From Octopus vulgaris (Eukaryota), in the NCBI GenBank assembly GCA_951406725.2, contig OX597837.1:5332001-5396000 (forward strand): a stretch of DNA of 64,000 bases, in the 5' to 3' direction. Positions 17,357 to 18,802 of the stretch are shown here, piece after piece (the stretch's first letter is position 1; every line of letters begins with the position of its first letter). Made by a program: the position numbers.

Positions 17357-18802
17357 CACGTGTCTGTCTGATTGTCTGCCTGTCTACCTATCTATCTATC
17401 TGTCGCTCCCTCATTACTTTGCCGCTTTGTATCTGTCTTGATTCTGTCTGTGTCATTGTCTGTCTGTTTGTTGCCTTGAATGTCATACTCGCTCACTTAC
17501 GCATGAACAACACATACGCACATATTCATTCATTCATTCATTCACTCAAATTTCTCATTCAGGTACTCACTACTTCAGCCTGTCTACGAGTATGTATGCA
17601 TGTACGTATGTATGTGTGTATGTATGTATGTATGTATGTATGTATGTATGTATGTATGTATGTATGTATGTATGTATGTATGTATGTATGTATGTATGTA
17701 TGTATGTATGTACGTATGTATGTATGTATGTATGTATGTATGTATGTACGTACGTACGTATGTATGTATGTATGTATGTATGTATGTGTGTGTATGTATG
17801 TATGTATGTACGTACGTATGTATGTATGTATGCATGTATGTATGTATGTATGTATGTATGTATGTATGTATGTATGTATGTATGTATGTATGCATGTATG
17901 TATGTATGTATGCATGTATGTATGTATGTATGTATGTATGTATGTACGTACGTACGTACGTATGTATGTATGTATGTATGTATGTGTGTGTGTATGTATG
18001 TATGTATGTACGTACGTATGTATGTATGTATGTATGTATGTATGAATGTATGTATGTATGTATGTATGTATGTATCCCCAAACAACTCTTTTATGGAGAG
18101 TTAGCCAAAGGAGAACGACCTCCACATAAACCAAAACAGAGGTATAAGGACTTGCTGAAGGCTTCCTTAAGAGATGCTTGCATCTCTCCTGACACATAGG
18201 AAGGCATAGCTATTGATCGTAGCAGGTGGAGAAGGATTGTGCATGAGGGGACAGCCACGTTTGAGAAATCTCGAGTTGCACATGAGAAAATAAGGAGAGA
18301 TGTCAGGAAGGGCATCGCATTTACACTTCCAGAAGGGAAGGGTCTTCCTTTGATTCTGACATGCAATGTCTGTGCAAGATCCCGCCTCAGTAAAGCTGGA
18401 CTCTTGAGACATCTTCGTAGTCATAAAACGAGACAGATGAGTGACAACCTGGCCACTGGTGGTGGTGTAACACACCATACTAATCATATCTGTCGGGCAT
18501 GTGGAAGAGAGTGTAATTCGGCAGGAGGACTTAAACGACATGCAAAGGTACATGAAGCCCAGTTACAACTACAGCCGGCTATTACCGGTAAAGGTTTCAG
18601 TTGCCGATTTTGTACAAGACATCGTAGATCTTTGGCTGGGATAAAAAGTCACATTCGATCACAGCACCAGTAACAGTTAAGCTTCGTGCAATGGCCATAC
18701 TCGATAACGAGAGGGCAGCCACAATGTATGTATGTGTGTATGTATGTATGTATGTATGTATGTATGTATGTATGTATGTATGTATGTATATATGTATATA
18801 AT

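What the first reader, a model, noticed from the sequence alone, without database searches (positions are those of the whole stretch)
18362..18673. RTE LINE ORF2 ending in three tandem C2H2 zinc fingers
Seen: after the RTE tail signature come three fingers (two CX2CX12HX3H, one CX2CX12HX4H). Each carries an S.(A/G)G(L/I)..H helix, and they are joined by long non-TGEKP linkers. Established: many RTE-clade ORF2 proteins end in a single such finger-like motif. Inference: the finger was triplicated within the element, which could alter nucleic-acid recognition or targeting. In a lineage known for C2H2 expansion, such LINE tails could also inflate or seed zinc-finger gene counts.
Basis: partly seen in the sequence, partly recalled or inferred. 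Interest (0 to 1): 0.7.

Follow-up and report, generated by a model that had tools for sequence, protein, structure and literature searches.

The report
Dead LINE fragment with three-finger tail
This is the broken 3' end of an octopus jumping gene (an RTE-type LINE) whose protein normally ends in three zinc fingers; the fingers are real, but they are a long-standing feature of a large family of such elements and not a new invention of this copy.

Summary
Window 18362-18673 encodes three C2H2 fingers (two CX2CX12HX3H, one CX2CX12HX4H) directly downstream of a LINE tail signature. Pfam scores them above its cut-off, and the AlphaFold2 model shows three beta-beta-alpha units.

The copy is a dead fragment of about 650 bp. 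It is 5'-truncated at 18076, has an in-frame TAG where relatives have Trp, has a 50-nt 3' UTR, and is flanked on both sides by (TATG)n.

The three-finger tail is not specific to this element:
- 21 of 21 aligned database representatives, at 31-41% identity to the window, have the same three fingers in register.
- 72 of the 120 best relatives of a full-length family member have three fingers; 18 have two, 25 have one and 5 are cut.
- Each finger position keeps its own consensus, so the multiplication is old.

Full-length relatives are single ORFs of 1,100-1,200 aa with endonuclease, RT and fingers. Published primers of the octopus element RTE-2_OV, which is described as carrying a C2H2 finger, translate into motifs of this family in colinear order.

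Function is inferred, not shown: nucleic-acid binding during target-primed reverse transcription. This is an ordinary locus and a modest family-level note.

The parts
17590..18075 (.). (GTAT/TATG)n microsatellite abutting the 5' truncation point, about 122 units
   Evidence: TRF (period 4, 93% matches); sequence. Either the pre-existing target or the tail of an earlier insertion; not resolved.
18076..18723 (+). 5'-truncated LINE fragment: last ~199 codons of the ORF plus the 3' UTR
   Evidence: tblastn to the C-terminal ~200 aa of full-length ORFs: P0177 residues 973-1167 at 41.5% identity, E 4e-35; P0151 at 62%. No second copy in the window.
18077..18673 (+). Remnant reading frame of 199 codons including one internal stop and the terminal TAA
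18197..18199 (+). In-frame TAG at the position of the conserved Trp of the tail signature
   Evidence: relatives P0015 and P0151 have W there.
18197..18232 (+). LINE tail signature (W)E..A.DR..WR
   Evidence: consensus of alignment A1.
18218..18307 (+). Predicted long alpha-helix before the fingers (residues 7-36 of the 157-aa frame), ending in the invariant RK
   Evidence: block pLDDT 84-97 over residues 11-40; R36 and K37 are invariant in A1.
18362..18424 (+). Finger 1, CX2CX12HX3H
   Evidence: The family-conserved Leu/Cys before L-S-K-A-G is Arg in this copy.
18491..18553 (+). Finger 2, CX2CX12HX3H
   Evidence: best Pfam stretch, residues 96-118.
18602..18667 (+). Finger 3, CX2CX12HX4H
   Evidence: The conserved non-ligand Cys is Arg in this copy.
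18671..18673 (+). Stop codon TAA
18674..18723 (+). Unique 3' UTR, 50 nt
   Evidence: The predicted RNA fold is no better than shuffles (z 0.12).
18724..18790 (+). (ATGT/TATG)n 3' tail, grading into (TA)n-rich simple sequence up to about 19146

Best explanation
Window 18076-18723, plus its (TATG)n tail, is a dead, 5'-truncated insertion of an RTE-type LINE of an octopus genome. The active progenitor encodes one protein of roughly 1,100-1,200 aa. It has an N-terminal AP-type endonuclease, a reverse transcriptase, a conserved helix with the W-E..A.DR..WR signature, and a C-terminal module of three separate C2H2 fingers joined by long variable linkers. The three-finger module is an old, conserved feature of a large family, not an innovation of this copy.

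Inferred mechanism, not shown: in the active protein the fingers act as independent nucleic-acid-binding beads. During target-primed reverse transcription they hold the element's own 3' end RNA (short UTR plus simple-repeat tail), the nicked target DNA, or both. This is the role played by the Cys/His motifs that follow the RT in other LINEs. This copy itself makes no functional protein.
For: Shown:
- Fragment limits, internal TAG, 50-nt UTR and flanking (TATG)n.
- Homology of the fragment to the last ~200 aa of full-length ORFs.
- Architecture of full-length relatives: Exo_endo_phos at the N-terminus, RVT_1 in the middle, C2H2 at the end, for P0152 and P0177.
- 1,707 relatives at E<=1e-3. Most of the 120 listed are 1,000-1,200 aa on contigs of about 4 kb. 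For the first 15 hits of at least 1,090 aa the non-ORF remainder of the longest contig is 222-1,943 nt, and under 1,000 nt in 13 of 15, which leaves no room for an ORF1.
- Three fingers in register, with all His and Cys ligand columns invariant or at least 90% conserved, in 21 of 21 aligned representatives. The last His of finger 3 shifts between HX3H and HX4H.
- Finger counts among the 120: three in 72, two in 18, one in 25, and 5 cut.
- Position-specific consensus for each finger, with linkers ranging 6-45 and 9-41 aa. This shows constraint on the fingers and none on the linkers.
- On a tree of the RT/core without the tail (115 rows; the 5 cut rows were dropped), three-finger forms lie on both sides of the midpoint.
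- Nearest named proteins are from Octopus vulgaris (94% identity over 32% of the query) and O. bimaculoides (72%).

Link to the RTE clade:
- Sense translations of RTE-2_OV primers hit the family in colinear order, in 16, 43, 58, 15, 97 and 61 of 120 proteins, with reversed-sequence controls of 0-1.
- That element was placed in the RTE clade by phylogeny. It has a 1,109-aa ORF with EN, RT and a C2H2 finger, and a microsatellite at the ORF end (Petrosino 2022, PMC9115989, sections 6, 8, 21, 26-28 read).
- A short 3' UTR made of simple repeats and frequent 3' partial copies are described for RTE elements (Tay 2010, PMC2887409, abstract and passages).

Support for the mechanism, weak:
- The model has three confident beta-beta-alpha units but pTM 0.37, meaning no fixed mutual arrangement.
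- P0177's fingers also pass the cut-offs of the RNA-binding-type families zf-met (40.2 bits against 21.2) and zf-C2H2_jaz (29.5 against 22.6).
- The two C2H2 motifs at the 3' end of the trypanosome LINE L1Tc have nucleic-acid chaperone activity (PMC2805920; start of abstract in the listing only).
Against: - No RT phylogeny with reference clades could be run, so the RTE assignment is indirect. The six matching primer peptides are short and could be conserved beyond the RTE clade.
- The RTE-2_OV primers are not in the window at up to 4 mismatches, including the one at the ORF end. The window's family is therefore not RTE-2_OV itself.
- The 72 of 120 share is biased upwards, because hits were ranked by similarity to a three-finger query.
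- The tree is unrooted, so it does not say whether three fingers or one is ancestral.
- Almost none of the relatives carry a taxon name, so 'widespread' refers to sequence diversity. The range across phyla rests only on weak Atlas leads, Mollusca and Chordata.
- The 3' UTR shows no fold better than shuffles, which gives no support for a structured RNA target.
- Nine other (TATG)n/(CATA)n arrays in the window have no LINE end beside them, so this copy's association with the repeat may be partly coincidence in a window that is 20.7% simple repeats.
- No binding or activity data exist for any such tail.
Confidence: 0.85

Rival explanations
1. One reading: a recent triplication of a single ancestral finger inside this element or within cephalopod RTEs, giving a lineage-specific change in targeting.
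For: The three fingers share a helix motif and single-finger relatives exist. One relative (P0151) differs in finger number, having lost finger 2, so finger number can change.
Against: The fingers are positionally orthologous in 21 of 21 representatives at only 31-41% identity to the window and in 72 of 120 relatives of P0020. Identity within a position (0.52-0.58) exceeds identity between positions (0.33-0.44). Three-finger forms lie on both sides of the midpoint of the core tree.
Confidence: 0.03
2. The element belongs to another LINE clade, such as an L2/CR1-like or other single-ORF lineage, that shares this tail. The RTE label would then be wrong.
For: The tail signature and the C2H2 finger are not listed among RTE hallmarks in the papers I could read: 'relatively rare in RTE', PMC9115989 section 6; no mention in PMC2887409.
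Against: Colinear matches of six translated RTE-2_OV primers to the family, with near-zero controls. Single ORF of 1,100-1,200 aa on ~4-kb contigs. Short UTR plus simple-repeat tail. RTE-BovB type reported as greatly expanded in cephalopods (PMC10294476, passage).
Confidence: 0.1
3. The fingers come from a captured or adjacent host zinc-finger gene, or the 157-aa frame is a domesticated small zinc-finger gene.
For: Octopus annotations contain gene models built on pieces of this tail (P0004, P0015). P0004 starts at the Met that lies between fingers 1 and 2.
Against: The fingers are contiguous with the LINE signature in one frame. The same arrangement closes full-length EN-RT ORFs. The frame here has no upstream Met before finger 1, an internal stop just upstream, and substitutions at family-conserved positions in fingers 1 and 3. 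It lies between microsatellites.
Confidence: 0.02

Closest known systems
RTE-2_OV of Octopus vulgaris, and the O. bimaculoides RTE (Petrosino et al. 2022, PMC9115989)
   Same: Octopus host. Single ORF of about 1,100 aa with endonuclease, RT and a C2H2 zinc-finger domain. Microsatellite at the ORF end. Its translated primers match the family of the window's relatives in colinear order.
   Different: None of the four RTE-2_OV primers searched (LineF5, LineR5, LineR6, LineR7), including the one at the ORF end, is found in the window at up to 4 mismatches, so this is another family or subfamily. The paper's text speaks of 'a' C2H2 finger and gives no number. Its figure and supplements, which hold the sequence, could not be seen.
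Classical RTE elements: C. elegans RTE-1, BovB, lepidopteran RTEs (Tay et al. 2010, PMC2887409)
   Same: Single ORF with AP endonuclease and RT. Extremely short 3' UTR made of simple repeats. Many copies are 3' partial.
   Different: For the lepidopteran elements of about 990 aa only AP and RT domains are described, and the words zinc and C2H2 do not occur. The family here adds one to three fingers, and five in a related tail type. The similarity of the tail signature to BovB is recalled, not tested.
C2-L1Tc, the C-terminal C2H2 region of the Trypanosoma cruzi LINE L1Tc (PMC2805920)
   Same: C2H2-type motifs at the extreme 3' end of a LINE coding region, with reported nucleic-acid chaperone activity.
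   Different: Different clade, two motifs instead of three, and no sequence relationship tested. I saw only the start of the abstract in a search listing.
Krueppel-type tandem C2H2 arrays (CTCF, ZBTB24, PRDM9, Zif268)
   Same: Same beta-beta-alpha fold and ligand spacing. They are the best PDB matches by sequence and by fold.
   Different: No TGEKP linkers; the linkers are 22 and 16 aa here and 6-45 aa in the family. Cys or Leu replaces the canonical core Phe. No fixed arrangement between fingers (pTM 0.37). Contiguous reading of triplets on duplex DNA is unlikely.

Membership tests
C2H2 zinc finger (Pfam clan; zf-C2H2_4 / zf-C2H2) | CX2-4CX12HX3-5H ligand spacing | tested here: met
   Three matches, at 18362-18424, 18491-18553 and 18602-18667; 12 of 12 ligands present.
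C2H2 zinc finger (Pfam clan; zf-C2H2_4 / zf-C2H2) | Profile score above the curated cut-off | tested here: met
   zf-C2H2_4 scores 32.6 bits against a cut-off of 27, with 3 stretches. zf-C2H2 scores 21.2 bits, below its cut-off of 25.2.
C2H2 zinc finger (Pfam clan; zf-C2H2_4 / zf-C2H2) | Beta-beta-alpha fold | tested here: met
   The AlphaFold2 model has three strand-strand-helix units and mean pLDDT 83.5. PDB fold matches are C2H2 arrays. This is a prediction only.
Krueppel-type tandem DNA-reading array | Seven-residue TGEKP-like linkers between consecutive fingers | tested here: not met
   Linkers of 22 and 16 aa. Family medians are 19 and 16 aa, with ranges 6-45 and 9-41. P0020, the one tail-family protein in the scan, has 0 TGEKP linkers.
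RTE clade of non-LTR retrotransposons | RT domain groups with RTE-1/BovB references in a phylogeny | not testable with these tools
   No reference sequences were available. The only link is indirect: translated RTE-2_OV primers match the family, and that element was placed in RTE by its authors (PMC9115989, section 6).
RTE clade of non-LTR retrotransposons | Single ORF with N-terminal AP endonuclease followed by RT, and no ORF1 | tested here: inconclusive
   The window copy is truncated and shows neither domain. Full-length relatives show EN then RT on contigs that leave under 1 kb of non-ORF sequence in 13 of the 15 checked. The contigs themselves were not read.
RTE clade of non-LTR retrotransposons | Very short 3' UTR ending in simple-sequence repeats instead of poly(A) | tested here: met
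   50-nt UTR followed by (ATGT)n. The feature is as described in PMC2887409 (abstract).
RTE clade of non-LTR retrotransposons | Abundant 5'-truncated copies consisting of the 3' end only | tested here: met
   This copy is 648 bp plus tail. Only one copy could be examined.
Three-finger-tail LINE family (defined here from database relatives) | Tail signature, helix ending in RK, then fingers 1-3 with position-specific consensus | tested here: met
   The window aligns end to end with 21 of 21 representatives. Its fingers fit the position-specific consensus, apart from Arg in place of the conserved Cys/Leu in fingers 1 and 3.

The most novel reading that the evidence does not exclude
The three-finger module is an ancient and evolvable recognition device of a major RTE sub-lineage. 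Individual fingers would read the element's own 3' end, its simple-repeat tail or matching microsatellite DNA. Gains and losses of fingers (1, 2, 3 and 5 are all seen) would retune which tails, partner SINEs or microsatellite targets an element uses. The database proteins made only of tandem LINE-tail-like fingers (P0094, P0035, P0024) would be host or element derivatives seeded from such tails.
Probability: 0.15. Interest if true: 0.55.

Novelty: new member of a known kind. Interest (0 to 1): 0.25.

Why it matters
For this locus, very little: it is one more decayed LINE end in a repeat-rich octopus region.

At family level there is a small but real point. A large and diverse group of RTE-like LINEs carries a conserved C-terminal module of three C2H2 fingers. 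The papers I could search mention only 'a C2H2 zinc finger ... relatively rare in RTE elements'.

RTE-type elements are reported as active in octopus brain and are being developed as gene-insertion tools (PMC9115989; PMC13708176, passages). Knowing what this module binds would therefore bear on how these elements choose their template and their target.

The result also warns annotators that fragments of such tails end up as 'proteins' in octopus gene sets (P0004, P0015).

Tried and rejected
- Self-comparison of the window (blastn and tblastn): no second copy.
- The search for homologous proteins with 'longer' lengths on the tail: no hit. This is a limit of the word index; the exhaustive search then found 334.
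- The listing of cluster members: not available, so the taxa of most relatives stayed unknown.
- RTE-2_OV primers searched in the window: none found. The idea that this copy is RTE-2_OV was dropped.
- RNA fold of the ORF end, 3' UTR and tail start: no better than shuffles, so no case for a stem-loop.
- Search for this LINE's 3' end beside the 9 other (TATG)n/(CATA)n arrays of the window: all scores within the random range. From this window I cannot tell whether the repeat is the element's tail, its target or both.
- PDB sequence and fold searches: only generic C2H2 arrays, and no solved LINE tail of this kind.
- The long multi-finger proteins among the hits (P0001, P0012 and others) do not carry the tail's helix motif by my pattern. 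I treat them as generic C2H2 matches.
- dN/dS of the fingers: not possible, because no DNA of relatives was available.
- Finger counts restricted to cephalopods: not possible, because the hits carry no taxon labels.
- Not used or closed: the bacterial genome collection, the phage, plasmid and E. coli collections, complex prediction, and the metagenome and viral collections. None of them bears on this element.
- Supplements of PMC9115989, which hold the RTE-2_OV sequence and the domain figure data, could not be seen.

Full report
WHAT IS THERE

The region 17590-19146 is dominated by simple repeats. (GTAT)n runs from 17590 to 18075, about 122 units at 93% matches. Unique sequence runs from 18076 to 18723. 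After that comes (ATGT)n, which decays into (TA)n-rich sequence.

Read from 18077, the unique part gives 199 codons. The frame starts in the middle of a conserved LINE motif, passes an in-frame TAG at 18197-18199, continues through a tail signature of the form (W)E..A.DR..WR, and ends in TAA at 18671-18673. The TAG replaces a Trp that relatives P0015 and P0151 keep. A 50-nt unique 3' UTR follows.

The window contains no N and no second copy of this element.

THE OBSERVATION

The strict finger pattern occurs only 4 times in all six frames of the 64 kb. Three are these, and the fourth contains stops.

Pfam zf-C2H2_4 scores 32.6 bits (cut-off 27) with three stretches. An AlphaFold2 model built on a 22-row alignment has mean pLDDT 83.5. 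It shows a long helix (residues 7-36 of the 157-aa frame) followed by three strand-strand-helix units. Its pTM is only 0.37, so the units have no fixed arrangement relative to each other. The best PDB matches, by sequence and by fold, are ordinary multi-finger proteins.

WHAT IT BELONGS TO

An exhaustive HMMER search with the 157-aa frame found 334 cluster representatives at E<=1e-3, 53 of them at E<=1e-10. From the 150 listed I chose 21 short ones (141-284 aa) that matched the query almost end to end. All 21 align with the window over the whole tail at 31-41% identity. The ligand columns C55, C58, H71, H75, C98, C101, H114, C135, C138 and H151 are invariant, and H118 is at least 90% conserved. 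The last His of finger 3 shifts because members differ between HX3H and HX4H.

One hit, P0020 (748 aa), carries RVT_1 upstream of the same tail. Searching with it gave 1,707 proteins at E<=1e-3. Most of the best 120 are 1,000-1,200 aa on contigs of about 4 kb, with precomputed Exo_endo_phos, RVT_1 and C2H2 domains. My own scan of P0152, P0177 and P0255 puts the endonuclease at the N-terminus, RVT_1 in the middle and, in P0152 and P0177, C2H2 fingers at the end; for the single-finger P0255 no finger family passed at E<=1e-5.

The window fragment aligns to the last ~200 residues of these ORFs: P0177 residues 973-1167 at 41.5% identity, E 4e-35. The closest named proteins are gene models from Octopus vulgaris (94% identity over 32% of the query) and O. 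bimaculoides (72%). The window is therefore most likely from an octopus genome.

HOW COMMON ARE THREE FINGERS

I anchored each of the 120 proteins on the conserved helix and counted strict fingers after it. The counts are 72 with three, 18 with two, 25 with one and 5 cut off before the fingers. The sample is biased, because hits were ranked by similarity to a three-finger query.

Each finger position has its own consensus at 80% or more:
- finger 1: C..C.R..LSKAG...H...H
- finger 2: C..C.K.CKS..GL..H...H
- finger 3: C..C...C.S.AGL.SH.R.H

Mean identity is 0.52-0.58 within a position and 0.33-0.44 between positions. Linkers vary from 6 to 45 aa and from 9 to 41 aa.

A FastTree of the core without the tail used 115 rows; the 5 cut rows were dropped. 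Three-finger proteins lie on both sides of the midpoint. One fully supported clade of 15 is purely single-finger, and the other one- and two-finger rows are scattered among three-finger relatives. Starred branches force at least 14 changes of the three-finger label. The tree has no outgroup, so gain and loss cannot be told apart.

A related tail type has five fingers (P0030, P0041). Its first finger resembles that of the single-finger clade, and two repeated finger pairs follow. One close relative of the window's copy, P0151, has lost finger 2.

Finger number therefore does change in these tails. The three-finger state, however, is old and is shared by a large and diverse set of elements. It is not a feature of this copy or, as far as the data go, of cephalopods alone. 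Atlas look-alike clusters are mostly labelled Mollusca or Chordata, which is only a lead.

IS IT RTE

I could not build an RT tree with reference clades, because no reference sequences were available. The evidence is indirect.

(a) The relatives look like single-ORF elements. For the first 15 hits of at least 1,090 aa, the longest contig leaves 222-1,943 nt outside the ORF, and under 1,000 nt in 13 of 15.

(b) The 3' UTR is 50 nt and ends in a simple repeat, and the copy is a 3' partial. Both features are described for RTE elements (Tay 2010, PMC2887409, abstract and passages).

(c) Petrosino et al. 2022 (PMC9115989; sections 6, 8, 21, 26-28 and part 1 of 3 of the reference list read) describe the octopus element RTE-2_OV. 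[quoted passage not shown] They placed it in the RTE clade by phylogeny. Of four of its primers searched (LineF5, LineR5, LineR6, LineR7), none occurs in the window at up to 4 mismatches, so this copy is not RTE-2_OV. Their sense translations nevertheless match the P0020 family in colinear order: ATIISA in 16, SKHWHL in 43, WFDEND in 58, KRKGDR in 15, EKCMEQ in 97 and ETWTAY in 61 of 120 proteins. Reversed-sequence controls gave 0-1 matches.

(d) The RTE-BovB type is reported as greatly expanded in cephalopods (PMC10294476, passage).

I rate the RTE assignment at about 0.85-0.9.

STATE OF THIS COPY

The copy is dead. It lacks everything upstream of the last ~199 codons and has an internal stop. 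In fingers 1 and 3 it has Arg where the family keeps a non-ligand Cys or Leu, the position of the canonical Phe. There are no frameshifts and all 12 zinc ligands are intact, so it is not very old.

The same-orientation (TATG)n on both sides could mean insertion into a matching microsatellite, a tail left by an earlier insertion, or later expansion. Nine other (TATG)n/(CATA)n arrays in the window show no trace of this LINE's end, and 20.7% of the window is perfect simple repeat. This one locus cannot decide the question.

HOW IT PROBABLY WORKS (INFERRED)

The relevant facts are the position after the RT, the long variable linkers, the lack of TGEKP, the replacement of the core Phe, and the bead-like model. 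Together they argue against a Krueppel-style array that reads contiguous DNA triplets.

The most likely role is binding of nucleic acid during target-primed reverse transcription. The bound molecule would be the element's own 3' end RNA, the target DNA or both. This is comparable to the Cys/His motifs that follow the RT in other LINEs (general knowledge) and to the C2H2 region of L1Tc, which has nucleic-acid chaperone activity (PMC2805920; only the start of the abstract seen).

Weak support comes from P0177's fingers passing the cut-offs of zf-met and zf-C2H2_jaz. The 3' UTR has no fold better than shuffles. I give the nucleic-acid-binding role about 0.5-0.6. Which ligand is bound remains open.

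'Captured host gene' is excluded. 'Triplication within the element' is replaced by an old, family-wide feature.

Inflation of zinc-finger counts looks minor. Two octopus gene models are pieces of this tail, but neither carries a precomputed Pfam domain. Wells et al. 2023 required at least five fingers per ORF (PMC10547256, passage).

The database does hold proteins made of tandem LINE-tail-like fingers with periods of 53-82 aa and no TGEKP (P0094, P0035, P0024). That is an untested lead for the 'seeding' idea.

IN PRINT

Five searches found no paper that describes a three-finger tail as typical of RTE-like LINEs. The only relevant statement is the one in PMC9115989. Repbase reports, subscription papers (Malik and Eickbush 1998; Zupunski 2001) and all supplements were out of reach, so it may be described there.

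VERDICT

This is an ordinary, decayed copy of a known kind of octopus LINE. The family-level pattern deserves a sentence in a paper on transposable elements, not a discovery claim. Interest 0.25.

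Noticed in passing
window 30741-32933 (+): An open 730-aa frame with RVT_1 (E 5e-33) and zf-RVT (E 3.3e-05). It is a second, different LINE with an apparently intact RT region, only 24-28% identical to the family studied here. The neighbouring 339-aa frame at 33669-34688 has no Pfam match.
   Followed up: partly
window 60857-61174 (+): A weak RT-like match (E 6e-05 to P0156), probably another decayed LINE fragment.
   Followed up: no
whole window: 20.7% of the 64 kb lies in perfect simple-repeat runs of at least 5 units; GC is 33%. 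There are 11 (TATG)n/(CATA)n arrays, and the nine that do not directly flank the fragment have no LINE end beside them.
   Followed up: partly
P0151 (database relative, 58% identical to window 18200-18670): The same tail with finger 2 cleanly missing: fingers 1 and 3 are kept and the flanking residues are conserved. This is a two-finger variant or a deletion in a decayed or expressed copy.
   Followed up: no
P0030, P0041 (database hits): LINE tails with five fingers. The first finger resembles that of the single-finger clade and is followed by two copies of a finger pair. This looks like an independent expansion of fingers in a related tail type.
   Followed up: partly
P0094, P0035, P0024 (database hits): Proteins consisting of near-identical tandem units (period 53-82 aa), each with one finger that resembles the LINE-tail fingers, and no TGEKP linkers. 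Origin and taxon are unknown.
   Followed up: no
alignment A1, C-terminal ends of P0007, P0010, P0011, P0016, P0023, P0029, P0031: After finger 3, several relatives carry an acidic stretch ending in a short M/T-A-x-V/I motif. One reading frame of the RTE-2_OV end primer gives a similar ending. The window's family stops right after finger 3.
   Followed up: no
window 18380-18385 and 18620-18625: In fingers 1 and 3 of this copy the family-conserved non-ligand Cys/Leu, at the position of the canonical core Phe, is Arg. The close relative P0151 has Cys at both. This fits decay after insertion.
   Followed up: partly
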